DNA from: Candidatus Nealsonbacteria bacterium
GTDB taxonomy: Bacteria; Patescibacteriota; Minisyncoccia; Minisyncoccales; JANBVM01
Assembly: GCA_047456295.1 (NCBI GenBank)
Contig: CP179887.1
Location: 45,944 to 109,943 of the forward strand
DNA: 64,000 bases
Direction: 5' to 3'
How positions within the stretch are numbered: position 1 is the first letter of the stretch; each line of letters opens with the position of its first letter. A program made the position numbers and the translations under genes. Of the stretch, positions 3,471-60,653 are shown piece by piece. The notes beneath the pieces are model-generated. The model was not told the origin of the DNA and searched no databases. It was given only the letters and a program-made list of their open reading frames with translations.

Positions 3471-4469
3471 ATGAAAATTGGCGTTGATTTAGGAACCTGT
3501 AATTCGGTTGTTTTTATTCCCAAGAAAGGAGTGGTTTTACAAGAGCCATCAGTGGTAGCTGTAGCTTTGGCAGAGAATGAGATTTTAGCTGTGGGAAGAG
3601 AAGCCAAAGAAATGATGGGCAGGACCCCTGATACCATCAAGATATACCGTCCACTTAGAGACGGGGTGATTGCTGATTTCAGGGTTACCCAGGCCATGCT
3701 TAAATATTTTATTGATAAAGCCCTGGGTAGATTTCGACCTTTTAAGCCTGATTTAATGATTGGTATTCCAGCTGGCATTACCTCTACTGAGAGGAGAGCA
3801 GTAATTGAAGCTGGCATGAATGCCGGAGCCAGGGCAGTTTATTTGGCAAAAGAACCAATCCTGGCAGCTGTGGGAGCCAATGTTCCTATCAATAGCTGCT
3901 CGGGCAATATGATTCTTGATATTGGAGGAGGAACATCTGAAGCTGCAGTAATTTCTCTGGGAGGAATTGTCAATTTTCATTCCATAAGGGTAGCTGGAGA
4001 TAAAATGGACCTGGCTATCTCTGATTACATTAAGAAAAAATACAATTTAGCCATCGGACAACAAACAGCCGAAGAAATAAAAAAAAGAATTGGTACAGCC
4101 TTACCTGATAAAGAAGAGAAAAGGATGGATATCAAGGGAAGGGATATGGCTCTGGGTTTGCCAAAGAACATTAAGATTTCATCAAACGATGTCTGTATGG
4201 CCTTATCTGATATTCTTTCAGAGATTATTCAGATGATTAAAATAGTGCTTCGGGATACTCCTCCTGAGCTCTCAGCTGACATACTGAACAAGGGTATGGT
4301 AATGACAGGGGGAGCTTCTTTGCTGAATAAGTTTCCAGCATTAATTGCCAGATCAATCGGTGTTCCAGCTATCTTAGCTGATGATTCCATTTTATGCGTA
4401 GCAAAAGGAACAGGAATAATGCTGGAAAATCTTGATCTCTACAAGAAAACCATAATGAGTAAGAAATAA
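3471..4469 (+). CDS. mreB: MreB-like actin homolog (divergent paralog)
   Basis: IGVDLGTCNS phosphate-1 motif; DIGGGTSE; collinear with second mreB at 8267. Confidence 0.8.
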   Translation: MKIGVDLGTCNSVVFIPKKGVVLQEPSVVAVALAENEILAVGREAKEMMGRTPDTIKIYRPLRDGVIADFRVTQAMLKYFIDKALGRFRPFKPDLMIGIPAGITSTERRAVIEAGMNAGARAVYLAKEPILAAVGANVPINSCSGNMILDIGGGTSEAAVISLGGIVNFHSIRVAGDKMDLAISDYIKKKYNLAIGQQTAEEIKKRIGTALPDKEEKRMDIKGRDMALGLPKNIKISSNDVCMALSDILSEIIQMIKIVLRDTPPELSADILNKGMVMTGGASLLNKFPALIARSIGVPAILADDSILCVAKGTGIMLENLDLYKKTIMSKK

Positions 4470-8266: not shown

Positions 8267-9310
8267 ATGTTGAAAAAAGCCCTTAAAGCATTATCAGATG
8301 ACATTGCAATTGATCTGGGTACAGCCAACTCCGTGGTTTATGTGCGGGGAAGGGGTATTGTAATGCAAGAACCCTCCATAGTAGCTGTCAATCAAAAAAC
8401 AGGTCAGATATTGGCAATTGGTTCTGAAGCCAAAAGAATGGTAGGCAGAACCCCATCTCACATTGTAGCCACCAGACCATTAAAGGCAGGAGTGATTTCT
8501 GATTTTGAGATTACAGAACAAATGCTCAGGTATTTTATTGAAAAGACCAGAAAGAAAAAATGGATTAGACCAAGGGTTATTATTGGAATACCATCTGGAG
8601 TAACACAGGTGGAAAAAAGAGCGGTTATTGATGCTACCAGGTCAGCTGGAGCAAGGGAGGTTTTTTTGATTGACGAACCCATGGCATCTGCTATTGGAGC
8701 CCGTCTTCCTGTTCAGGAACCAGGTGGCAACTTTGTCATTGATATCGGGGGAGGGACAACAGAGGTGGCAATCATTTCTTTGGGAGGAATAGTTTTATCA
8801 AAGAGCTTGAGGGTAGCTGGAGATAAACTAAACGAAGACATCGTGCTCTTTGCCCAAGAAGAGTACAAATTATTAATTGGTGAAAGGACGGCTGAGTCAA
8901 TTAAGATTGCCATAGGTTCAGCTTACCCTTTAAAAGATAAAAAAGAGATTCCAATGAGGGGTAGAAACCTGGTTACCGGTCTTCCTGAAGAGGTTTTGAT
9001 TTCCAACAAGGACGTGAAAAGAGCAATGGATAAATCAATTAATCGGATTGTAACTGAAATTAAAACAGCCATTGAAGAGACTCCGCCTGAACTGCTGGCT
9101 GATATAATGACAAAAGGAATATATATGGCAGGAGGAGGTTCTCTTTTAAAAGGATTGGATGTGTTGATTCAGAAAGAAACAAGGATTCCGACAAATATCA
9201 TTGAAGACCCCATGACAGCTGTGGTAAGGGGAGCAGGAATGGTATTGGAGAATTTGGATGAGCTGCACGAGGTATTGTTAGAAACATGGGAGTTGGAACC
9301 CCCAAAATAA
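8267..9310 (+). CDS. mreB: rod-shape protein MreB
   Basis: IAIDLGTANS; DIGGGTTEVAI; full-length 347 aa. Confidence 0.9.
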   Translation: MLKKALKALSDDIAIDLGTANSVVYVRGRGIVMQEPSIVAVNQKTGQILAIGSEAKRMVGRTPSHIVATRPLKAGVISDFEITEQMLRYFIEKTRKKKWIRPRVIIGIPSGVTQVEKRAVIDATRSAGAREVFLIDEPMASAIGARLPVQEPGGNFVIDIGGGTTEVAIISLGGIVLSKSLRVAGDKLNEDIVLFAQEEYKLLIGERTAESIKIAIGSAYPLKDKKEIPMRGRNLVTGLPEEVLISNKDVKRAMDKSINRIVTEIKTAIEETPPELLADIMTKGIYMAGGGSLLKGLDVLIQKETRIPTNIIEDPMTAVVRGAGMVLENLDELHEVLLETWELEPPK

Positions 9311-53313: not shown

Positions 53314-54027
53314 ATGTCAAACCCAATAGTTAAATTAGAAAATGTTTGGAAAGTTTATCAGTTAGGCAAGGTTGAATTAACAGCTTTAAAAGGAGTAAGC
53401 CTCGATGTGAGTCGAGGTGCTTTTGTAAGTATTATGGGTACTTCAGGTTCTGGTAAATCAACTCTTTTAAACATGATAGGATGTTTAGATACTCCAACTA
53501 AAGGTAAAGTTTTTTTAAAGGGAAAAGATGTTTCAAAACTAACAGAAGATCAATTGTCTCAATTAAGGGGGAAAATCATTGGCTTTGTATTTCAGGAATT
53601 TAATTTAATGCCTCATTTAACAGCTCTTGAGAATGTAATGCTGCCCATGGTTTTTCAAGGTATATCACTAAAACAAAGAAAAGAAAAAGCAAAAGCACTT
53701 TTAGTGTCTGTAGGTTTAGAAAAAAGAATTTCCCATCAGCCAGCTGAACTTTCAGGTGGTGAAAGACAGAGAGTAGCTATAGCCAGAGCTTTTGCTAATG
53801 ATCCAGAACTTGTTATTGCTGATGAGCCAACAGGTAATTTAGATTCAATTACTGGTAAAAAGATAATGGATCTTTTAAAGAAATTCCATCAAAAACAAGA
53901 AAAAACCATTATTGTTGTGACCCATGATCCTAATATTGCTGGTTACAGTAAGAATATTTTTAATATTAAAGATGGTGAAATTATTGTTAATCATCAAAAA
54001 GCATCTAAAGTATTATGGGAGAAATAA
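53314..54027 (+). CDS. ABC transporter ATP-binding protein (MacB/LolD type)
   Basis: [12 protein letters not shown] Walker [16 protein letters not shown] signature, Walker [11 protein letters not shown]. Confidence 0.9.
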
Positions 54028-55238
54028 AAGAATATATTTATATTGGTATTAGAAATCTTAAGACCAGATCTTTAAGAAGTTGGTTAACTATTTTTGGTAT
54101 TGTTATCGGAGTTTTTTTAATCATTAGTTTGCTTTCTTTGTCTGAAGGCATTAAAAATAGTATTACTCAACAATTAAGATCTTTGGGAGGAGAAATGGTT
54201 TTTGTTATACCTGGTGATGTTTCCAATCCTTTTATGGCTATGATGGGAAGTGAAAAATTAGAAAAAGAAGATATAGATATTATTAAAAAAACAAAAGGAG
54301 TAGATCGAGTGCTTACTACCTCATACACAAGCACTATTATGAGGCATGAAGATGAAAGCAAGCAAATTCTTTTAATGGGTGTTGCCTGGGAAGATAGAGA
54401 TGTTTTAGAAAACTATCAGGGTTGGAATTTAGCTGAAGGACAATGGCCTGTTGCTGGCAAAAGAGAAGTTGTAATTGGTCAACAAGTAGCTCATGAAATA
54501 TTTGAAAGAGAGATTGAAGTTGATTCAGAGGCAGTAATTAAAGGCAGAACTTTCAAAATAGTTGGTGTTTTAAATTCTTTAGGAAGCAGAATGGATGATA
54601 GCGGTGTTTATATAGACATACCAATTTATCAGGGTTTAACTGGAGAAAAAAGAGGAAGTGCTCAAATGGCAATGGTTAAAATTGAAGAAGGTGCTCCTCT
54701 AGATGAAACAGCTGATAATATTAGGGAGAATTTACAAAAAACAAGAAAAAGAAGAGCTGGAACTGATGAAGCTGACTTTAGCGTTATTACTTCAGATACC
54801 ATCGGTGATATTGCAGGTAACATATTAGCTGTTATTCAATTAGCCATCATGGCTTTCGCTAGTATTGCTATTATTGTTGGAGGTATTGGAATAATGAATA
54901 CAATGTTTACTTCAGTTAGAGAAAGAACTAAAGAAATAGGGGTTATGAAAGCTGTAGGCGCTAAAAATTCAGCAGTATTATCTATTTTCCTAACTGAAGC
55001 TGCAGTTATTGGTTTGATTGGTGGAATAGGAGGAACATTTTTAGGTGCTATTTTTGCAAAGTTTATTGAGCTTTATGGGCAGCTTCACCCCATGTTTTAT
55101 TTTAAAGCCTCTGTAAGTCCTGAATTAGTTATTTTTGGCTTGTTTTTTTCTTTTTTAGTTGGTTGTTTGTCAGGATTTTTTCCAGCTAGAAAAGCAGCTA
55201 GCTTGAAACCAGTTGAGGCCCTGAGAAGACTTGAATAA
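54015..55238 (+). CDS. ABC transporter permease, FtsX/MacB-like
   Basis: N-terminal TM, large periplasmic domain, C-terminal 3-TM FtsX fold. Confidence 0.8.
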   Translation: MGEIKEYIYIGIRNLKTRSLRSWLTIFGIVIGVFLIISLLSLSEGIKNSITQQLRSLGGEMVFVIPGDVSNPFMAMMGSEKLEKEDIDIIKKTKGVDRVLTTSYTSTIMRHEDESKQILLMGVAWEDRDVLENYQGWNLAEGQWPVAGKREVVIGQQVAHEIFEREIEVDSEAVIKGRTFKIVGVLNSLGSRMDDSGVYIDIPIYQGLTGEKRGSAQMAMVKIEEGAPLDETADNIRENLQKTRKRRAGTDEADFSVITSDTIGDIAGNILAVIQLAIMAFASIAIIVGGIGIMNTMFTSVRERTKEIGVMKAVGAKNSAVLSIFLTEAAVIGLIGGIGGTFLGAIFAKFIELYGQLHPMFYFKASVSPELVIFGLFFSFLVGCLSGFFPARKAASLKPVEALRRLE

Positions 55239-55291
55239 AGTGTTTAATGTATTATAAAATAAAAAAAGGATTAATTTAAATCTTTAAAATT

Positions 55292-55594
55292 ATGACTTAT
55301 TTAATATTAGGTGCAGGTTTTTTAGGAGGAGTAGTGAGGGGATTAATGGGATTCGTAAAACACCAGTTTTCATATAAAAACGTGCCTTTTAAATTAGGGT
55401 ATTTTTTAACAATGGTTTTTCTGTCTGGCGTGATCGGGTTTTTATCAGTTTGTGCAGTTAAAAATACTGGTTTTACCTTAGAGGGAGTGTTTAGTCCAGC
55501 TTTAAGTTTTATTGTAGGTTATGCAGGAGGTGATTTTATAGAGAATATTTATAAAATCATTATTAAAAAATCATCATTGTATTCTGAAAAATAA
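55292..55594 (+). CDS. small membrane protein
   Basis: 3 predicted TM helices. Confidence 0.4.
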   Translation: MTYLILGAGFLGGVVRGLMGFVKHQFSYKNVPFKLGYFLTMVFLSGVIGFLSVCAVKNTGFTLEGVFSPALSFIVGYAGGDFIENIYKIIIKKSSLYSEK

Positions 55595-55610
55595 TTGCTT
55601 TTTAGCTTTA

Positions 55611-56048
55611 TTATTTTTCCTCTGTCCACTTTTTTGCCTTTTCCACAGTAGGAAATAATTCTACTTCTATTGATGGTTTGTTTAACTTTAAGAAAAACGA
55701 ACCAATTATTCTTGCCATTGGATTTTTATAAACTAACGCAACTTTTTTTCTAACATGTTTCGCAATCTCTGGACTTTCATTAACAAATCTTCTTGCTTCC
55801 AGACTTACTTTTTCTATCTCTGAAATATCTACAATTATTCCTCGTCTTTGGAGATTCTTCGTTATTTTAATTCCTGCTTCAGTTATTCGTTCTACTTCTT
55901 CTTTGTCTATTTTCCCCCACATTCTTATCATCATTATATTGTCTTCAATCCAAGTTTCGCTACTCCTTGTTTTAATTGATTCTTTTTTCATATTTTTATA
56001 AATCCGTTTGACTGTTTTCATTTCGACATCTTTAATAACGACAAACAA
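55611..56048 (-). CDS. hypothetical protein (possibly STAS-like)
   Basis: ORF only; weak alpha/beta pattern. Confidence 0.35.
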   Translation of the reverse strand: MFVVIKDVEMKTVKRIYKNMKKESIKTRSSETWIEDNIMMIRMWGKIDKEEVERITEAGIKITKNLQRRGIIVDISEIEKVSLEARRFVNESPEIAKHVRKKVALVYKNPMARIIGSFFLKLNKPSIEVELFPTVEKAKKWTEEK

Positions 56049-56118
56049 TTAATTTTAAAAAATCTTCCTTTTAAAGAAAGGAAAAGTTCGAGTCCTACTA
56101 CCGGAGCAAATTAAGTTC

Positions 56119-56160
56119 AAAAATCGCCAATCAGGCGGTTTTTTGATAAAATGAACTATA
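56119..56160 (+). promoter_or_regulatory. repeat module D
   Basis: aatcgcc-aatca-ggcggtt hairpin, ttttTGATAAAAT, gaactataATG. Confidence 0.5.
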
Positions 56161-56577
56161 ATGACAAGAAGAATTGCTATTTTTGCCCCTTCTGGAGTTG
56201 GTAAATCAACACTAATTAAGATTGCCTTAAAACAAGGGATAAAGGCTTATGATTTTGAAGATTTCTCTTCTCAAGAAAGAATAAAAAAAGCTCAAGAAAT
56301 TCTCAAGAAGGATTTTAATGACATTGTATTGTTTAATGCGGGAGATTTACAAACTAAAGATTTCCCGTTTGATGTTGAACTGGTATTGCTTTTACCTCCT
56401 AAAGATATTTATTTGAAGCGTTTAAAAAAGCGCGACAAATTAAATCCAGAGAAAAAAGGCCAACAAGGGAATATGAAGTATGAGATATTTTTTTAAAAAA
56501 AGAACATTTTTCATAGAATTATTAAAGATACAGGAACAGCGGATGAAATTTTAGATAAGATATTAAAAAGTTTATGA
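56161..56577 (+). pseudogene. P-loop kinase paralog interrupted by in-frame TAA at codon 112
   Basis: collinear with 57269..57685 over 138 codons; TAA at 56494..56496 aligns with the Ser of TST in the paralog; downstream in-frame RIIKDTGTADEILDKILKSL matches the paralog C-terminus. Confidence 0.7.
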
Positions 56578-57044
56578 ACATAAAAGTTTTTATTGAGAAT
56601 AAAGCAGGGTCTAATCAAAAAAATATCTATGATGAAAAAACCTTGCAATATAAGAAAACTGTAATAATCTCAAGGAAATATCCATATCCCTATGGTTTCG
56701 TTTTGAATACCACAAGTGGGGATGGTGATAATGTAGATTGTTTTGTGTTAACAAACAAAAAACTTAAAACTGGTGAAATCGTTGAGTGTAAACCTATTGC
56801 CATGATGGAGCAAATAGAGTCTTATTCTGCAGAGCCAGGAATAGAGGAAGAAGACCACAATGTCTTAGCTGTTTTAGAGGGTGAAAGTTTTGAAATAGAC
56901 GATATATTAAAGAATAAACTGTCTGAATTTGTTTCACATGCCTTTGACCATTTACCAGATAAAAAAGTTAAAGTAGGAAATTTCTTAGATGAAAAAAAGA
57001 CTATAGAGTATATAGAAAAATGTAGAGATGCTATTAATCTTTAA
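56574..57044 (+). CDS. family I inorganic pyrophosphatase-like protein
   Basis: KYPYPYGFVLNTTSGDGDNVDCFVL resembles the PPase DGDPLDVLV core. Confidence 0.65.
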   Translation: MNIKVFIENKAGSNQKNIYDEKTLQYKKTVIISRKYPYPYGFVLNTTSGDGDNVDCFVLTNKKLKTGEIVECKPIAMMEQIESYSAEPGIEEEDHNVLAVLEGESFEIDDILKNKLSEFVSHAFDHLPDKKVKVGNFLDEKKTIEYIEKCRDAINL

Positions 57045-57232
57045 ATTCAGGTTCGAACATTATCCTATTAAATTAGGTTAATCCTTGAAATAGTCTTTAA
57101 ATCTCTAAGCTTTTTCTCAATTTCTATCCAATCAATAGTTCTAAATTGGTAAATTTTCCCAAAACCAAGTTCTAATATTGTACCACCCCCGGAGCAGGCT
57201 AGTGCTCGGTTCAAGTGACCGAGACGCATCAA

Positions 57233-57268
57233 ATCGCCTTATAGGCGGTTTTTTGGTAAAATCGAAAT
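57233..57268 (+). promoter_or_regulatory. repeat module E
   Basis: aatcgcc-ttata-ggcggtt hairpin, tttttTGGTAAAAT, cgaaatATG. Confidence 0.5.
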
Positions 57269-57685
57269 ATGAAAAGAAGAATTGCCATCTTTGGTCCTCC
57301 TGGTGTTGGTAAGTCAACCCTAATTAAGCTCGCTATAAAAAGAGGAATAAAGGCCTTTGATTTCGAAGATTTTCCTGAGGAAGAAACATTAAGGCGAGTC
57401 AAAGAAATCTTCAAAAAAGTTCCTGATGACATTGTATTGTATGGTGCGGCTGGCTTACAGACTTATGATTTCCCACAGGATGTAGAACTGGTGTTGGTTC
57501 TGCCACCTAAAGATATTTATTTAGAGCGTATAAAGGAGCGGGATACAGTAAATCCAGCTAAAGTAGGCCAGAACCATTTGGAATGGTATGATGGCTATAC
57601 AAGTACTAAGAATCGTTATCATAAAGTTATTAGTGAGACAGGAAGTCCCAATGAAGTTTTAGATAAAATATTAGAAGATTTATGA
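57269..57685 (+). CDS. small P-loop kinase-like protein
   Basis: IAIFGPPGVGKSTLIKL Walker A; 138 aa. Confidence 0.65.
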   Translation: MKRRIAIFGPPGVGKSTLIKLAIKRGIKAFDFEDFPEEETLRRVKEIFKKVPDDIVLYGAAGLQTYDFPQDVELVLVLPPKDIYLERIKERDTVNPAKVGQNHLEWYDGYTSTKNRYHKVISETGSPNEVLDKILEDL

Positions 57686-58653
57686 AAAGTGTTACCCCAT
57701 CAAAACTTAGAAAAGGAGATGAGATAAGAGTCATAGCTCCTGCTAAAAGTTTCAAGACCTCCTTCACAGAAGAGAGAATGGCAACCGCAATGAAAAGGTT
57801 TGAAGAAATGGGTCTGAAAGTTAGTTTTGGAAAACATGTCTACGAACGGAATGAATTTGAATCCACAACTATTGAACATCGACTAGAAGATTTACATGAT
57901 GCTTTTTCAGACAACAACGTAAAAGGGATTTTAACTGTTCTTGGAGGTACCCATTCCAATCAGCTTTTGAAGTATATAGATTACGACCTCATCAGTAATA
58001 ATCCTAAAATCTTATGCGGACTATCGGACATCACTTCCTTGGCAAATGCAATACATGCTAAAACAGGACTGGTGACATATTCTGGACCACACTTCACGTT
58101 GTTTGGTGTAAATAAAGCAATTGACTATACTGTCGATTATTTTAAGCAATGTTTTTTTACAAACGAATCAATAGACGTACAAGCTTCGGAGCATTTTTGT
58201 AATGATAGATGGGACAGTGAAGAAATTCCAAACGATGGAATGTGGCTCATCAATCGTGGTGAAGCTCAAGGAAAAGTTCTCGGCGGTAATATGGTCACTT
58301 TCAATCTTCTGCAAGGGAGTGAATACTTTCCTGATATCTCTGATTCAATCATCTTTGTGGAAGACAACGCAAAAGAAAGTATTCGCGCCTTTGAAAATCA
58401 CTTACAATCACTTATCAACCAACCAAATTTTTCCAAAGTGATAGGGTTAGTAATTGGCAGGTTTCAAGAAGGTACTGGAATGACAAAAAAGTTACTTACA
58501 CAAATCGTTCAAACAAAAAAAGAATTTAACAATTTACCTGTTATTGCAAATGTGGATTTTGGACATACAATCCCAATGATTACTTTCCCCATCGGAGGCG
58601 AATGCAAAATTGCAGCAAAGGACGATCCTAGGATTAAGATAACCAAACACTAA
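57682..58653 (+). CDS. S66-family LD-carboxypeptidase (LdcA/MccF-like)
   Basis: GLSDITSL nucleophile-Ser motif; 323 aa. Confidence 0.7.
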   Translation: MKSVTPSKLRKGDEIRVIAPAKSFKTSFTEERMATAMKRFEEMGLKVSFGKHVYERNEFESTTIEHRLEDLHDAFSDNNVKGILTVLGGTHSNQLLKYIDYDLISNNPKILCGLSDITSLANAIHAKTGLVTYSGPHFTLFGVNKAIDYTVDYFKQCFFTNESIDVQASEHFCNDRWDSEEIPNDGMWLINRGEAQGKVLGGNMVTFNLLQGSEYFPDISDSIIFVEDNAKESIRAFENHLQSLINQPNFSKVIGLVIGRFQEGTGMTKKLLTQIVQTKKEFNNLPVIANVDFGHTIPMITFPIGGECKIAAKDDPRIKITKH

Positions 58654-58930
58654 TTATGGACAAAATGAAACAAGAAAGCACGGTCAATTTGATTATATAA
58701 AAAGCATTGGATGCTACCTAGACAGTGTGTGAACCGACATCAATATCCTTGTATAGTTCAAGAACGCGTACCGATGCAGCAAGCGGAAGCGATTGAAATT
58801 TTAAAGACTATTTTATCTAAAGACCATTAAAACAGGTTCTAACCTCGTCCAGCCCCCGGAGTCAGCTTGTGCTCGGTTCGAGGGACCGAGACACTTTCGG
58901 TTCGAATCCTAACCCCACAGATGGTAAAAT

Positions 58931-58961
58931 CAAGCTTGAAAGAAGCTTGCTTTTTTATTAA
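58931..58961 (+). terminator. intrinsic terminator
   Basis: caagctt-gaaag-aagcttg followed by CTTTTTT. Confidence 0.6.
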
Positions 58962-58989
58962 ATTTAGGGAAAGGTTAAAATAGTGACTT

Positions 58990-59925
58990 ATGGAGATAAA
59001 AAACACAAAACCATCTTTTCGTTGTGTGTTACATGGAAGTTTCCGCAAATACTGGGATTTAATTAAAAGAACACATCGTATCTTTACTGAAGCCGGTATA
59101 GAAGTTTTGGCGCCTCGTGAAACAGAAATAACTTCTTCTACAGAAGGCTTCGCATTTTTAGAAGGTGAAGAAGATAAAGACCCTCGGATGGTTGAGTTGC
59201 TATATCTGCATAATCTTAAACGATTAGGGGAAAACGGTTTTAGTTATTTTGTAGATCCAGAAGGATACATAGGCAAAAGTGCATCTTATGAACTTGGCAT
59301 TGCACAAGTTACAAATATAAGGTGCTTCTTCTTCGATACCCCAAGGGACCACCCAGCTTATATTCATAGAAATGCTATTTGGAAACCTGAAAACCTCACT
59401 ACATTTATACGAGAGAAAGGAAGATTACCTGAGCCTCAAGTAGAGCCGGACAAACAAAAGATTCATAAGCTTTGGGAAGATTTAATGGTACCTGGTTCTG
59501 TAGTAGCTGCGGGAGGCATTATTGAGTATGACTCTGATAAAAAAGAGAAAGAAATTCTTTTAGTAAAGACTCATAAGTGGAAAGGACGATATTCGATTGT
59601 GGGGGGTAAGCTTCGCAGAAATGAAAGACTTGAAGATGCTTTACTTAGAGAAGTTAAAGAAGAAACAGGATTGGTAGGAAGGGTTGGAGAACATCTTTGC
59701 ACTTTTGACCAGATAAAAAACTCTGGTTATTACTTGCCTGGAATACAACATATTTTTGTTGATAATGTAGTTCATGTTAGAAGTAAACACGTTCGTTTGA
59801 ATGAAGAAGCAGAAGATTATATTTGGATACCAGCACGAATTGCGCTTCGTGAACTTTCAATAGAACCAAATGCTCGTCATACACTTCAATTATATGCTGA
59901 CAGCTTTTCTGTGTTAAGTAACTGA
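58990..59925 (+). CDS. fusion: nucleoside 2-deoxyribosyltransferase-like N-domain + Nudix hydrolase C-domain
   Basis: Nudix box GGKLRRNERLEDALLREVKEETGL; N-terminal flavodoxin-like NDT-type region (VLAP...SYELGIA). Confidence 0.6.
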   Translation: MEIKNTKPSFRCVLHGSFRKYWDLIKRTHRIFTEAGIEVLAPRETEITSSTEGFAFLEGEEDKDPRMVELLYLHNLKRLGENGFSYFVDPEGYIGKSASYELGIAQVTNIRCFFFDTPRDHPAYIHRNAIWKPENLTTFIREKGRLPEPQVEPDKQKIHKLWEDLMVPGSVVAAGGIIEYDSDKKEKEILLVKTHKWKGRYSIVGGKLRRNERLEDALLREVKEETGLVGRVGEHLCTFDQIKNSGYYLPGIQHIFVDNVVHVRSKHVRLNEEAEDYIWIPARIALRELSIEPNARHTLQLYADSFSVLSN

Positions 59926-59962
59926 TTTATAAGACAGGTTCTAAAATCGTTCGTCCTTCGGA

Positions 59963-60026
59963 GCTAAAAAATCGCTAAATAGGCGATTTTTTGATAAAAT
60001 AAACAATATAAGTAAAAAATATTAAT
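59963..60026 (+). promoter_or_regulatory. repeat module F
   Basis: aaatcgc-taaatag-gcgattt perfect 7-bp stem, tttTGATAAAAT, then 26 nt to ATG. Confidence 0.5.
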
Positions 60027-60653
60027 ATGGCTTTAATCAATAACCTAATCCAACAAGGTTGGTTAAAAACACCTAAAATTATTAAGGCTTTTAAAGAAAT
60101 CAAAAGAATTGATTTTTTGCCTGAAGATTCAAAAAATCTGGCTGAATTAAATGAACCCCTACCAATAGGATATGGACAGACAATATCTCAACCATTGGTT
60201 GTAGCTTTTATGATAGAACACCTCCAACCTAAACAAGGCCATAAGATTTTAGATATTGGTTCAGGTTCAGGCTGGACAACAGCCTTGTTGTCTTACATTG
60301 TAGGACCCAAAGGAAAGGTAATAGCCATTGAAGTTATTCCAGAATTAAAGGAGTTTGGAAAGAAAAACGTATCAAAATACAACTTTATACAAAAAGGAAT
60401 AGCAGAATTTATATGTGCAGATGGTTCAAAAGGGTATGAAATAAAAGCCCCTTTCGACAACATCTTAGCCTCAGCTTCAGCCCAGGAAATTCCTCAATCC
60501 TGGAAAGAACAATTGAGGATAGGTGGCAGTATTGTAACCCCTATTAAGTCTTCCATCTGGGTTTTCACCAAAAAATCAGAAAAAGACTTTGAGGAACGGG
60601 AATATCCTGGTTTTGCTTTTGTACCACTTATAACAAAGAATGAAAACACATGA
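60027..60653 (+). CDS. pcm: protein-L-isoaspartate O-methyltransferase
   Basis: GYGQTISQP...ILDIGSGSGWTTALL SAM motif. Confidence 0.85.
   Translation: MALINNLIQQGWLKTPKIIKAFKEIKRIDFLPEDSKNLAELNEPLPIGYGQTISQPLVVAFMIEHLQPKQGHKILDIGSGSGWTTALLSYIVGPKGKVIAIEVIPELKEFGKKNVSKYNFIQKGIAEFICADGSKGYEIKAPFDNILASASAQEIPQSWKEQLRIGGSIVTPIKSSIWVFTKKSEKDFEEREYPGFAFVPLITKNENT

What the first reader, a model, noticed from the sequence alone, without database searches (positions are those of the whole stretch)
56081..59962. Accessory array 56.1-60.0 kb: nucleotide-handling genes, each bounded by repeat modules with tRNA T-arm-like fragments
The array holds a kinase with an in-frame stop, a PPase-like protein, an intact kinase paralog, an S66 LD-carboxypeptidase (MccF-like), an NDT+Nudix fusion and pcm. 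Intergenic pieces recur: ccccggagcaggctagtgctcggttcaagtgaccgagac at 57190 versus cccccggagtcagcttgtgctcggttcgagggaccgagac at 58850; acaggttctaa at 58833 and 59933; ggttcgaatcc T-loop-like at 58901. Inference: MccF-type peptidases detoxify aminoacyl-nucleotide antibiotics, so together with nucleoside kinase, Nudix, NDT and PPase functions the array may be a mobile nucleotide-antibiotic resistance or salvage island.
Basis: partly seen in the sequence, partly recalled or inferred. Interest (0 to 1): 0.6.

Follow-up and report, generated by a model that had tools for sequence, protein, structure and literature searches.

The report
Recombinase attachment-site scars bounding gene cassettes
The short repeats between these genes look like leftover docking sites, copied from the end of the asparagine tRNA gene, of mobile elements moved by a serine recombinase, and the same repeat marks arrays of small accessory genes in many uncultured Patescibacteria (CPR) bacteria.

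Summary
The window comes from a Candidatus Nealsonbacteria (CPR) genome. Two relatives have the permease gene directly next to pcm, so 55239-60026 is extra DNA.

The intergenic repeats resolve into three elements:
- One 22-nt fragment of the tRNA-Asn 3' end (56086-56107).
- A 28-nt oriented motif, GGTTCTAAC-ATC-GTCC-N7-GGAGC. There are three good copies (57168, 58835, 59937) and two decayed ones.
- A terminator-plus-promoter hairpin, in three copies.

The 28-nt motif equals the tRNA-Asn 3' end with 5 extra bases. It occurs in more than 120 metagenome contigs, always co-oriented within a contig. Copies lie 0.2-4 kb apart (mostly under 2 kb), separated by small, diverse genes, and downstream of tRNA-Asn wherever that gene or its 3' fragment is on the contig.

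Large serine recombinase genes abut tRNA-Asn in related genomes. In three elements the motif sits at the far end. The 5-bp offset and a GTCC-N8-GA-N8-GGAC dyad fit the published attP/attB half-site geometry of serine integrases.

Best reading: the array is a stack of cargo-gene-plus-attachment-site remnants. The antibiotic-resistance idea is untested; the S66 enzyme is MccF-like by sequence only. No recombinase gene is in the window, and most copies are half-sites only, so an active cassette system is not excluded.

The parts
55292..55594 (+). 100-aa membrane protein (weak holin-like hit). It is part of the DNA absent from relatives, but whether it belongs to the repeat-bounded array is uncertain.
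   Evidence: ORF. Pfam hit is weak only. Absent at this locus in L002 and L003.
55611..56048 (-). DUF7793 / SpoIIAA-like gene, the only minus-strand gene of the insertion.
   Evidence: Pfam E=3e-17. Absent at this locus in L002 and L003.
56086..56107 (+). B-type site: a 3' fragment of tRNA-Asn running from the T-loop to the discriminator (GTTCGAGTCCTACTACCGGAGC). It heads the array.
   Evidence: 19/22 identical to the tRNA-Asn 3' end of L113 (counted by eye). Full tRNA-Asn genes followed by a similar hairpin-promoter flank occur in L092 and L113. 67 nt are 77.6% identical to L092. It is not a tRNA gene here.
56119..56152 (+). Terminator-promoter element, copy 1 (AAAAATCGCC-N5-GGCGGTTTTTTGATAAAAT).
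   Evidence: (family D2).
56161..56578 (+). P-loop kinase-like paralogue with a single in-frame TAA at 56494-56496. The stop overlaps the start of the PPase gene (ATGA).
   Evidence: D1 and D3 in register, spacing 1108; P0007.
56574..57044 (+). Family I inorganic pyrophosphatase.
   Evidence: Pfam PF00719, E=1e-19. The same kinase+PPase pair is in L015-L017.
57050..57077 (+). Decayed P-type motif directly after the PPase stop codon (GGTTCGAACATTATCC...).
   Evidence: The orthologous position in L015 carries a better copy, GGTTCTAACCTCATCCATCCCCCGAAGT.
57096..57164 (+). Decayed P-type motif of the 'ccaatcaat' subfamily, with its conserved upstream extension.
   Evidence: (matches to L019, L039, L066, L106, L129).
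57168..57195 (+). P-type motif, variant copy (AGTTCTAATATTGTACCACCCCCGGAGC).
   Evidence: (E=0.03). 92-96% identical copies occur in L015, L019, L057, L092, L094 and L113.
57196..57226 (+). Recurrent hairpin module AGGCTAGTG-CTCGGTTCAAGTGACCGAG-AC. It carries another T-loop-like box. Role unexplained.
   Evidence: The same module occurs in L033, L073, L141, L096 and L068.
57231..57262 (+). Terminator-promoter element, copy 2.
57269..57685 (+). Intact 138-aa P-loop kinase-like protein. Its stop overlaps the S66 start.
   Evidence: weak similarity to the putative adenylate kinase 4cvn, 1.3e-4.
57682..58653 (+). S66 peptidase of the MccF-like clade.
   Evidence: Pfam, both domains. PDB ranking. 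The same kinase+S66 pair is in L018 and L019.
58657..58830 (+). Decayed remnant of a further ORF. Its end (...AIEILKTILSKDH*) resembles the kinase C-terminus.
   Evidence: (family D6). It is further decayed in L019.
58835..58862 (+). P-type motif, the best copy (GGTTCTAACCTCGTCCAGCCCCCGGAGT; 26/28 to the consensus, counted by eye).
   Evidence: (E=3e-9).
58864..58894 (+). Second copy of the hairpin module.
58899..58921 (+). Decayed B-type (tRNA-Asn 3'-end-like) fragment, GGTTCGAATCCTAACCCCACAGA.
   Evidence: Compare L033 2999 and L096 1745, where the hairpin module is followed by an intact B-type fragment.
58931..58955 (+). Intrinsic-terminator-like hairpin followed by a T run.
58990..59925 (+). 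311-aa protein: an unassigned N-terminal domain plus a C-terminal Nudix hydrolase.
59937..59964 (+). P-type motif 11 nt after the Nudix stop (GGTTCTAAAATCGTTCGTCCTTCGGAGC).
   Evidence: (E=1.4e-5). The homologous gene in L151/L152 is also followed at once by a decayed copy.
59967..60000 (+). Terminator-promoter element, copy 3, now positioned to drive pcm.
60027..60653 (+). pcm, the conserved right flank. In relatives it sits directly after the permease gene.

Best explanation
The intergenic repeats are halves of site-specific recombination (attachment) sites derived from the 3' end of the tRNA-Asn gene.

The two site types:
- The B-type is the true tRNA end: GGTTCGA(A/G)T-CC-TAC-CCGCG-GA-GC.
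- The P-type is the same sequence with 5 extra bases between the T-loop box and the TCC box: GGTTCTAAC-ATCG-TCC-AGNNNNCG-GA-GC.

What related genomes show: in related CPR bacteria, a large family of large serine recombinases (LSRs) inserts elements at tRNA-Asn. The recombinase gene ends on top of the tRNA 3' end. In the three elements whose far end is on the contig, that end carries the P-type motif in the same orientation.

Inferred mechanism:
- The recombinase's zinc-ribbon domain reads the GGTTC(T/G)AA box.
- Its recombinase domain reads (G)TCC.
- Strand exchange is at the GA of CGGAGC.
- The 5-bp offset is what distinguishes attP-type from attB-type half-sites.

The window's array (56086-60000) would then be a stack of right-end remnants of such elements. 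Each is a cargo gene or gene pair followed within about 5-180 nt by a P-type half-site. The stack is headed by a B-type fragment. Each unit is re-armed by a portable terminator-plus-promoter hairpin.

Shown here: the sites, their distribution, the insertion relative to relatives, and the LSR/tRNA-Asn/P-motif arrangement in other genomes.

Inferred, not shown: the domain-to-box assignment, the crossover position, and the accretion-then-deletion history.
For: 1. Insertion. L002 and L003 have ATPase, permease, pcm, YceG, DJ-1, L10 and L12 contiguous, without any island gene.

2. The motif is a real, widespread, oriented element.
- Positions not fixed by the search pattern are also conserved: A at -4, C9, T11, C12, G13, C15.
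- It shows no base-pair covariation and does not lie in long ORFs.
- In all 46 multi-copy loci every copy is on one strand.
- Flanking ORFs are co-oriented with the motif 136:40.

3. Link to tRNA-Asn.
- 11 of the 34 tRNA genes in loci fetched by the motif alone are tRNA-Asn.
- In all 23 loci with a B-type site (11 full tRNA-Asn genes, the rest 3' fragments, the window included), every P copy is on the same strand. All but one copy (in L095) lie downstream.

4. Link to LSRs.
- L060: tRNA-Asn 1206-1279, convergent LSR gene 1276-2841, P motif at 8578.
- L077: B-type fragment, LSR, then a P motif 8.7 kb away.
- L023: the LSR 3' end overlaps a P motif, an attP-like arrangement.
- Blind test: five LSR homologues were chosen only by protein similarity and contig length. 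Three abut tRNA-Asn convergently (L143, L147, L150). A fourth (L145) abuts a degenerate P-like site and is followed by six co-oriented P copies.

5. Geometry.
- With a 5-nt gap, the motif and the tRNA-Asn end match at 19/23 positions (counted by eye from the sequences).
- Rutherford et al. 2013 (PMC3783163) show for LI integrase a 25-bp attP half-site with the ZD motif at positions 16-24 and recombinase-domain contacts at 9-11. In attB the ZD motif is shifted 5 bp toward the centre.
- Placing the centre at GA puts GGTTCTAAC at 24-16 and GTCC at 12-9 in the P-type. It puts GGTTCGAAT at 19-11 and TCC at 11-9 in the B-type.
- Independently, LSR-proximal sites show the dyad (G/A)TCC-N8-GA-N8-GGA(C/T) in 6 of 7 cases.
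- GGA(C/T) is enriched at exactly that offset among all copies: 10 at the predicted position against 0-2 at all but one of the other offsets scanned.

6. Gene-plus-P units recur in other contexts: PPase then P in L015; the Nudix fusion then P in L151/L152; kinase+S66 in L018 and L019.
Against: - No LSR gene is in the 64-kb window. LSR genes are present in only 4 of the roughly 120 motif-fetched loci.
- The array is not next to a tRNA-Asn gene. It lies between a permease gene and pcm.
- LSR recombination makes no target duplication, so truncated B-type fragments (window 56086 and others) are not an expected product.
- Canonical LSR rules forbid a second attP integration into attL, so tandem arrays need an extra assumption: deletion of the previous element's left end, or weak right-arm requirements.
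- Only 10 of 214 P copies have the symmetric right-arm box. The window's three do not.
- The right-arm GGAC in LSR-proximal sites lies in the recombinase's own C-terminal codons, so coding constraint may contribute to its conservation.
- In three of the LSR loci (L143, L147, L150) no P motif was found within 10 kb.
- The assignment of boxes to protein domains is by analogy with one distant integrase.
- The recurrent hairpin module with a third T-loop-like box is unexplained.
Confidence: 0.6

Rival explanations
1. Active cassette platform. The P-type half-site works like an integron attC. Single-gene cassettes bounded by it are captured, excised and reshuffled in trans by a recombinase (the LSR or another enzyme) at a tRNA-Asn-derived primary site. 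The arrays are then living structures, not fossils.
For: - Arrays hold up to 8 co-oriented copies, with one or two small, unrelated ORFs between copies (L134).
- Cargo is extremely diverse and includes toxin-antitoxin-type families, as in integron arrays.
- The 28-nt half-site is very well conserved although its right flank is not.
- Copies within one array share the variable inner 7 nt far more often than copies from different arrays: 26% identical against 1.8%. This resembles the array-specific attC sites of sedentary chromosomal integrons.
- Single units appear in different contexts in close relatives.
Against: - No recombinase gene is consistently linked to arrays.
- No circular cassette junction or empty site was observed.
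- LSRs are not known to act on half-sites.
- Decayed copies and decayed ORFs in the window (57050, 57137, 58657-58830) look like erosion rather than turnover.
Confidence: 0.17
2. Classical tRNA-targeting islands made by tyrosine integrases. On this view the repeats are the direct repeats of the tRNA 3' end that flank successive integrations.
For: - tRNA-Asn heads the arrays.
- Truncated tRNA 3' fragments (window 56086, L024, L033, L057, L059) are the usual product of tyrosine-integrase insertion (established knowledge).
- Tandem accretion at tRNA genes is routine for that enzyme class.
Against: - The distal repeats are not copies of the tRNA end. They carry a constant 5-nt insertion.
- No Phage_integrase family appeared among the families matched by two or more of 150 neighbouring ORFs.
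- The recombinase genes actually found abutting the sites are serine recombinases.
Confidence: 0.08
3. RNA-level element. The motif lies in the 3' UTR between the stop codon and the terminator, and acts as a tRNA-like processing or stability signal that punctuates polycistronic or read-through transcripts.
For: - The motif is strand-specific.
- It sits 3-120 nt after stop codons and before terminator hairpins.
- It has a T-loop-like box.
Against: - No internal or flanking base-pair covariation.
- The folds of the tested segments are only modestly more stable than shuffles or not at all (z = -2.5 to +0.1), and the stable part is the terminator hairpin.
- No Rfam match.
- This reading does not explain the link to tRNA-Asn and LSR genes, or the dyad in LSR-proximal sites.
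Confidence: 0.07
4. A selfish short interspersed repeat (REP- or MITE-like) spread by a transposase, which merely accumulates in intergenic DNA.
For: - High copy number in some genomes.
- Intergenic location.
- Subfamilies with extended conserved flanks.
Against: - The motif itself is not palindromic; an inverted partner was found for 2 of 158 copies.
- Perfect co-orientation within contigs.
- Clustering in one island of a 64-kb window.
- No transposase family was prominent among 150 neighbouring ORFs.
Confidence: 0.05

Closest known systems
Serine-integrase attachment sites (attP/attB of A118/LI, Bxb1, phiC31 integrases; model of Rutherford et al. 2013, PMC3783163)
   Same: - A recombinase with Resolvase + Recombinase + Zn_ribbon_recom domains lies next to the site.
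- The half-site has a distal box of about 9 bp and an inner box.
- The distal box is 5 bp nearer the centre in the host-type site than in the element-type site.
- There is a dyad around a central dinucleotide in the recombinase-proximal sites.
- The recombinase gene lies at the element's edge.
   Different: - The target is a tRNA gene (tRNA-Asn), which as far as I know is unusual for LSRs.
- The element-type half-site persists in multi-copy co-oriented arrays without a partner half-site and without a recombinase gene.
- The right arms are poorly conserved.
- No biochemistry exists for this family.
Tandem genomic islands at tRNA genes, made by tyrosine integrases (for example islands at asn tRNA genes in enterobacteria; own knowledge)
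   Same: - A tRNA gene heads a variable region built from successive insertions.
- Partial tRNA 3'-end copies mark the junctions.
- Cargo is accessory.
   Different: - The junction repeat is not a plain copy of the tRNA end; it has a 5-nt insertion.
- The associated recombinase is a serine recombinase, not a tyrosine one.
- Units are very small, 0.2-2 kb.
Integron cassette arrays and CALINs (clusters of attC sites lacking an integrase)
   Same: - Co-oriented arrays of single small, diverse genes, each followed by a conserved site.
- Sites are more alike within an array than between arrays.
- Arrays are often found without a nearby recombinase gene.
   Different: - No attC-type imperfect palindrome (R''/R' pairing was found for 2 of 158 copies).
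- No IntI-type tyrosine recombinase was seen.
- The site is tRNA-derived.
- Cassettes here often carry their own promoter.
pdif modules of Acinetobacter plasmids (gene modules bounded by 28-bp XerC/D sites; own knowledge)
   Same: Small gene modules bounded by a 28-nt recombination site, reshuffled between replicons.
   Different: pdif sites are 11-6-11 imperfect palindromes in alternating orientation and use the host XerC/D. Here the site is asymmetric, always co-oriented and tRNA-derived.
MccF / LdcA (peptidase family S66), for the cargo gene 57682-58653
   Same: Both S66 domains are present. By sequence it is closest to the PDB entries named MccF-like (4e5s, 5usd, 4h1h), then to MccF, and far from LdcA.
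   Different: No substrate data exist. The MccF-specific nucleotide-binding residues were not checked. It is translationally coupled to a small P-loop kinase-like gene, which as far as I know is not part of known microcin C immunity.

Membership tests
Large-serine-recombinase attachment sites | A gene for a recombinase with Resolvase, Recombinase and zinc-ribbon domains lies beside the site. | tested here: inconclusive
   Met in related loci: L023, L060, L077, L143, L147, L150, L145 (Pfam PF00239 + PF07508 + PF13408). Not met in the window, where tblastn found no LSR in 64 kb.
Large-serine-recombinase attachment sites | Two inverted half-sites lie around a central dinucleotide. | tested here: inconclusive
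   The dyad (G/A)TCC-N8-GA-N8-GGA(C/T) is present in 6 of 7 LSR-proximal sites and in 10 of 214 motif copies at exactly the predicted offset. The three window copies have unrelated right arms.
Large-serine-recombinase attachment sites | The distal (ZD) box is 5 bp closer to the centre in attB-type than in attP-type half-sites. | tested here: met
   The tRNA-Asn end GGTTCGAAT-CCTACCCGCG-GA compared with the motif GGTTCTAAC-ATCGTCCAGNNNNCG-GA shows the same boxes with a 5-nt offset. The rule is taken from PMC3783163.
Large-serine-recombinase attachment sites | Conservative recombination between attP and attB, catalysed by the enzyme. | not testable with these tools
   Needs an in vitro or in vivo recombination assay, or read-level evidence of attP/attB junctions.
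Integron (attC cassette array) | attC site with inverse-core (RYYYAAC) and core (GTTRRRY) boxes that pair. | tested here: not met
   A downstream partner complementary to GGTTCTAAC within 300 nt was found for 2 of 158 copies, no more than upstream controls. No covariation.
Integron (attC cassette array) | An IntI-type tyrosine recombinase with attI lies at the head of the array. | tested here: not met
   The arrays are headed by tRNA-Asn or its 3' fragment. No Phage_integrase family appeared among the families matched by two or more of 150 neighbouring ORFs. Most contigs are short, so absence is not proven.
tRNA gene | A complete cloverleaf recognised by ARAGORN or Rfam RF00005. | tested here: not met
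   No tRNA is called in 55.9-60.1 kb. Only the last 22 nt of a tRNA-Asn are present at 56086-56107, with a decayed copy at 58899-58921.
REP / MITE-type interspersed repeats | A palindromic unit or terminal inverted repeats, dispersed on both strands. | tested here: not met
   The 28-nt motif is asymmetric. In all 46 multi-copy loci the copies are on one strand. Within the window it is confined to one island.
MccF (microcin C immunity peptidase, S66) | S66 fold with both domains, and closer to MccF than to LdcA. | tested here: met
   Pfam PF02016 + PF17676. phmmer: 4e5s 'MccF-like' 1.8e-98; MccF 3gjz 4.4e-42; 3tla 9.4e-35; LdcA 1zrs and 5z01 about 1e-13.
MccF (microcin C immunity peptidase, S66) | Hydrolysis of aminoacyl-nucleotide amide bonds, with the nucleotide-stacking loop residues. 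| not tested
   Substrate-binding residues were not aligned, and activity needs biochemistry. Candidate catalytic motifs (GLSD, FVEDN, FGHT) are visible in the sequence but were not placed on a structure.
Nucleoside 2-deoxyribosyltransferase-like domain (N-terminus of 58990-59925) | Match to an NDT-family profile or fold. | tested here: inconclusive
   No NDT-family Pfam hit at E<=5; the only match was an unrelated family at E=0.22. No PDB sequence hit. The AF2 model has low confidence in residues 94-128. Foldseek matched only the Nudix half.

The most novel reading that the evidence does not exclude
CPR bacteria may possess an integron-like gene-capture platform built on a serine recombinase. 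A tRNA-Asn-derived primary site would accept single-gene cassettes, each tagged by a 28-nt P-type half-site. This would give co-oriented, array-specific cassette stacks that supply accessory functions (nucleotide handling, toxin-antitoxin and others) to very small genomes. The window would hold a displaced piece of such an array.
Probability: 0.17. Interest if true: 0.85.

Novelty: new variant of a known kind. Interest (0 to 1): 0.6.

Why it matters
If the reading is right, it identifies the natural attachment site of a very large, uncharacterised family of serine recombinases in Patescibacteria. More than 5,700 relatives score E<=1e-30. The proposed attB is the tRNA-Asn 3' end, and the attP arm is the 28-nt motif.

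It also offers a natural illustration of the 5-bp attP/attB offset rule in a lineage far from the phage integrases where the rule was worked out. Serine integrases are genome-engineering tools, so a family whose sites can be predicted from sequence is directly usable.

It would also explain how ultra-small CPR genomes hold and exchange accessory genes. One hot spot downstream of tRNA-Asn accumulates small cargo units, each with its own terminator and promoter.

The co-oriented half-site arrays resemble integron cassette arrays but use different chemistry. Whether they are fossils or an active capture system is a testable question.

Tried and rejected
- tRNA or structured-RNA gene in the island. 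ARAGORN and Rfam, at gathering and E<=10 thresholds, found nothing relevant.
- Stable RNA fold of the modules. Only the terminator hairpins are stable, and z-scores are modest.
- attC-like palindrome. No inverted partner.
- Base-pair covariation inside the motif. None; the mutual information seen reflects subfamilies.
- Protein-coding origin of the motif. The minus-strand reading '...WLRxLDDVRT' looked tempting because of apparent synonymous changes. However, the frame is open for a median of only about 28 codons, and no frame is consistently open. The few long ORFs are recombinase or neighbouring genes that run into the site.
- Adjacency of the P-type motif itself to tRNA genes. None within 400 nt except one tRNA-Ser. 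The link is to tRNA-Asn further upstream.
- Phage origin. One hit for the motif in IMG/VR, with no LSR or tRNA on that contig. No relative of the L023 LSR was confirmed in viral contigs.
- Literature. No paper holds the 14- or 16-mer motif strings, and none links integrons or attC, or genomic islands and serine recombinases, with Patescibacteria in a relevant way.
- Composition. GC is only slightly raised (0.35-0.39 against 0.30-0.35), which is not decisive.
- NDT fold of the Nudix protein's N-terminus. Unresolved.
- Shared flanks between L060 and L121, to define an empty site. Only the tRNA and the motif plus 30 nt match.
- Literature on the function of BA_5613 / Lmo1638. Nothing useful found.

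Full report
**What is there.** The region is AT-rich and its relatives are Patescibacteria (CPR). The intact kinase-like protein is recorded from a Candidatus Nealsonbacteria MAG contig of 689,429 bp. The gene order is as follows:
- ABC ATPase (53314-54027) and FtsX-type permease (54015-55238).
- A 100-aa membrane protein and a DUF7793 gene on the minus strand.
- A P-loop kinase-like gene with one in-frame TAA, coupled to a family I pyrophosphatase.
- An intact kinase-like paralogue coupled to an S66 peptidase.
- A decayed ORF remnant.
- A 311-aa protein with a C-terminal Nudix domain.
- pcm, YceG, DJ-1, L10 and L12.

The repeats are statistically real and, within the 64 kb, confined to this island. 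The one gene label I could not confirm is 'NDT' for the N-terminus of the Nudix protein.

**The island is extra DNA.** I fetched loci around pcm relatives in one genome per species. Two of the closest (L002 and L003; pcm 73% and 71% identical) show ABC ATPase, permease, pcm, YceG, DJ-1, L10 and L12 as one contiguous block. Only 5-42 nt separate the permease gene from pcm, and none of the island genes lies within 8 kb. So 55239-60026 is an insertion here, or a loss in both relatives.

The kinase-like gene is rare, with seven 90%-identity clusters. Where it occurs elsewhere it forms the same two-gene units, but in other surroundings: kinase+PPase in L015-L017 and kinase+S66 in L018 and L019. A relative's copy of the Nudix fusion (84% identical) lies between a second Nudix gene and a dihydroorotate dehydrogenase gene, not near pcm.

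**Anatomy of the repeats.** Three elements recur.

1. A 28-nt strand-specific motif, GGTTCTAA-N4-GTCC-N7-GGAGC, with a fixed 15-nt spacing. Good copies are at 57168, 58835 and 59937. Decayed copies are at 57050 and 57137. Each lies after the stop codon of the preceding gene, 5-11 nt after it in three cases.
2. One fragment, GTTCGAGTCCTACTACCGGAGC (56086-56107), plus a decayed relative at 58899-58921.
3. A hairpin fused to an extended -10 box, AAAATCGCC-N5-GGCGGTTTTTTG(A/G)TAAAAT. It lies 8, 6 and 26 nt before the start codons of the two kinase-like genes and pcm.

A fourth recurrent piece remains unexplained.

**The motif is widespread.**
About a hundred chance hits might be expected in a collection of that size (my own estimate, assuming roughly 10^12 bases, not a tool result). 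The hits are clearly not chance. Positions left free by the pattern are conserved (aaaCA before the motif; C9, T11, C12, G13, C15). The consensus is aaaCA-GGTTCTAAC(A/G)TCGTCCAG-N4-(C/G)GGAGC.
- 46 loci carry 2-8 copies. In all 46, every copy is on one strand.
- L134 has eight copies in 5.9 kb, with single small co-oriented ORFs between most of them.
- Neighbouring ORFs are co-oriented with the motif 136:40.
- Their content is very diverse: 153 Pfam families in 150 ORFs. The most frequent include NUDIX, TspO, Fic, HIT, CYTH, HEPN/Polbeta and HAD. No recombinase family is prominent.
- The motif shows no base-pair covariation, has no inverted partner and is not inside long ORFs. That argues against an attC-type site, a structured RNA, or a coding remnant.

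**Where it comes from.** The window's 56086 fragment matches the 3' end of tRNA-Asn(GTT). L092 and L113 carry the full tRNA, followed by a hairpin-promoter element like the window's. Aligned to that tRNA end, the 28-nt motif is the same sequence with five extra bases after the T-loop box. GGTTCGAA|TCCTACCCGCGGAGC compares with GGTTCTAA[CATCG]TCCAGCCCCCGGAGC at 19 of 23 positions (my count).
- Among loci fetched by the motif alone, 11 of 34 tRNA genes are tRNA-Asn.
- 23 loci, the window included, contain a tRNA-Asn end: 11 full genes and 12 fragments. In every one, all motif copies are on the tRNA's strand. With one exception (a copy in L095), they lie downstream of it.

**Which enzyme.** Some long minus-strand ORFs that run into the motif are large serine recombinases.
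- L060 reads: tRNA-Asn (1206-1279), a convergent recombinase gene (1276-2841), then the motif at 8578 in the tRNA's orientation. That is a 7.3-kb element.
- L077 has the same layout over 8.7 kb.
- In L023 the recombinase gene ends on the motif itself, as expected of an unintegrated attP.
- As a blind test I took five homologues of this recombinase from long contigs. The family has more than 5,700 members at E<=1e-30, with domains PF00239 + PF07508 + PF13408. Three abut tRNA-Asn in the predicted convergent way (L143, L147, L150). A fourth (L145) abuts a degenerate P-like site and is followed by six co-oriented motif copies. The fifth showed neither.

**Fit to serine-integrase mechanics.** Rutherford et al. 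2013 reported three things for LI integrase (read). The attP half-site is 25 bp, with the zinc-ribbon-domain motif at positions 16-24. The recombinase-domain helix contacts positions 9-11. In attB the zinc-ribbon motif is shifted 5 bp toward the centre.
- If the centre is the GA of CGGAGC, the motif has GGTTCTAAC at 24-16 and GTCC at 12-9. The tRNA-Asn end has GGTTCGAAT at 19-11 and TCC at 11-9. The inner box is in the same place and the outer box is shifted by 5 bp.
- The distal-box placement is by construction. The inner-box coincidence and the invariant core are not.
- As an independent check, recombinase-proximal sites show the dyad (G/A)TCC-N8-GA-N8-GGA(C/T) in 6 of 7 cases.
- Across all copies, GGA(C/T) is enriched at exactly the predicted offset: 10 copies there, against 0-2 at the other offsets scanned. 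The single exception is the position immediately after GGAGC, which also has 10.
- A crossover at GA would leave the tRNA intact, because both partners continue with GC.

I therefore call the tRNA end the B-type half-site and the motif the P-type half-site. This domain-to-box assignment is inference by analogy.

**How the window's array most likely arose.** Each element that enters at tRNA-Asn leaves its P arm at its far end, next to its last cargo gene. If the recombinase end of an element is later deleted and a new element enters, cargo-gene-plus-P units pile up, co-oriented, downstream of the tRNA. This accounts for several observations:
- The P arm sits close after the stop codon of the preceding gene.
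- Recombinase genes are absent from most arrays.
- P arms are joined to unrelated DNA on their right.
- The window holds decayed copies and a decayed ORF.
- Gene-plus-P units recur in other contexts. PPase then P occurs in L015, and the Nudix fusion then a decayed P in L151/L152.

The hairpin-promoter element, which in this window occurs only in the island and is common in motif-bearing contigs, gives each unit its own terminator and near-leaderless promoter. The last copy is positioned to drive pcm.

**What does not fit.**
- The array is not at a tRNA-Asn gene.
- Serine recombination makes no duplication, so the truncated B-type fragments are unexplained.
- Canonical rules do not allow re-integration into attL.
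- The recurrent hairpin with a third T-loop-like box has no role in the model.
- The 28-nt half-site is better conserved than relics should be.
- Copies within an array share their variable inner 7 nt much more often than copies from different arrays: 26% against 1.8% identical. That is reminiscent of array-specific attC sites in chromosomal integrons.

An active cassette-capture system using the half-site is therefore not excluded. I give it about 0.17.

- The S66 enzyme is closest to PDB entries deposited as MccF-like (4e5s, 5usd, 4h1h; E about 1e-98 to 1e-95). Next come MccF proper (1e-42 to 1e-34), and it is far from LdcA (about 1e-13). 'MccF-like' holds at the level of sequence clade only.
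- The kinase-like proteins are only weakly similar to adenylate-kinase-type P-loop proteins.
- The Nudix half resembles NudI/MutT-type hydrolases.
- The Nudix fusion is 66-84% identical across many Parcubacteria orders. That points to a conserved cellular role rather than niche resistance.

A nucleotide-salvage or house-cleaning theme is plausible for CPR cargo in general; Nudix, HIT, CYTH and HAD families recur next to the motif. Resistance to aminoacyl-nucleotide antibiotics remains an untested guess.

**Novelty and verdict.** Integration at tRNA genes, tandem accretion and serine-integrase half-site geometry are all known. I did not find three things described:
- a serine-recombinase family targeting tRNA-Asn in CPR bacteria;
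- its 28-nt P-arm motif;
- the co-oriented half-site arrays that separate small cassettes.

I rate it a new variant of a known kind. Interest is 0.6, and confidence in the attachment-site reading is 0.6.

Noticed in passing
window 56119-56152, 57231-57262, 59967-60000; also L033, L057, L092, L133: A conserved hairpin fused to an extended -10 box (ATCGCC-N5-GGCGGTTTTTTGGTAGAAT). In related contigs it usually lies only 6-10 nt before the ATG, which suggests portable terminator-promoter units and near-leaderless mRNAs. In this window it occurs only in the island.
   Followed up: partly
window 56485-56505: The single in-frame TAA of the first kinase-like gene sits inside a T7A8 homopolymer run (ATATTTTTTTAAAAAAAGAAC). 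The downstream frame stays open to the normal stop at 56578. This could be a true pseudogene, an assembly error or a slippage site.
   Followed up: no
L015 35-265, L018 855-1092, L019 565-815: In other contigs the kinase-like gene is preceded by a strong TTGACA-17-TATATT promoter and a conserved leader of about 200 nt. In the window the short hairpin-promoter element replaces it. This could be a regulatory leader.
   Followed up: no
window 57196-57226 and 58864-58894; L033 8173-8205, L073, L141, L096, L068: A recurrent module, AGGCTAGTG + hairpin CTCGGTTCRAGNGACCGAG, follows the P-type motif and is sometimes followed by a tRNA-Asn 3' fragment. It contains a third T-loop-like box in direct orientation. 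Its role is unknown.
   Followed up: partly
window 58657-58830; L019 2190-2270: A decayed ORF lies after the S66 gene (starts ATGGACAAAATG, ends ...AIEILKTILSKDH*). Its end resembles the kinase-like C-terminus. It is eroded further in L019.
   Followed up: partly
window 58990-59484 (residues 1-165 of the Nudix fusion): The N-terminal domain has no Pfam or PDB sequence match and a poor AlphaFold model. Even so, the whole protein is 66-84% identical across many Parcubacteria orders. It is a conserved CPR domain of unknown fold.
   Followed up: partly
L143 11596-14657, L147 11584-15495, L150 11584-15884, L092 5028-8098: In L143, L147 and L150, tRNA-Asn lies just downstream of dnaG-rpoD, and in L092 just downstream of a 585-aa and a 391-aa ORF that I take, unscanned, to be the same pair. 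The integration hot spot therefore seems to have a conserved chromosomal address that differs from the window's permease-pcm site.
   Followed up: partly
L114, L127, L108, L062, L041 (GC-rich contigs): A subfamily of the motif (…cctGGTTCTAACTTCGTCCACTACGGGGAGCcagcaaaccaagcgagg + hairpin) occurs in GC-rich, apparently non-CPR contigs, with about 1.1-kb spacing. The ORFs between copies are mostly on the opposite strand. The element is not restricted to AT-rich Parcubacteria.
   Followed up: no
L060 8606-8635 and L121 (reverse complement) 4345-4374: Two otherwise unrelated loci share 30 nt to the right of the motif (CAGAT(A/T)GGATGATACGAGTTC), including the symmetric GGAT box. This may be a conserved full site of one subfamily.
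   Followed up: partly
window 55292-56048: The 100-aa membrane protein (weak holin-like hit) and the minus-strand DUF7793 gene are also missing from relatives at this locus, but they are not bounded by the repeats. The left edge of the insertion is undefined.
   Followed up: no
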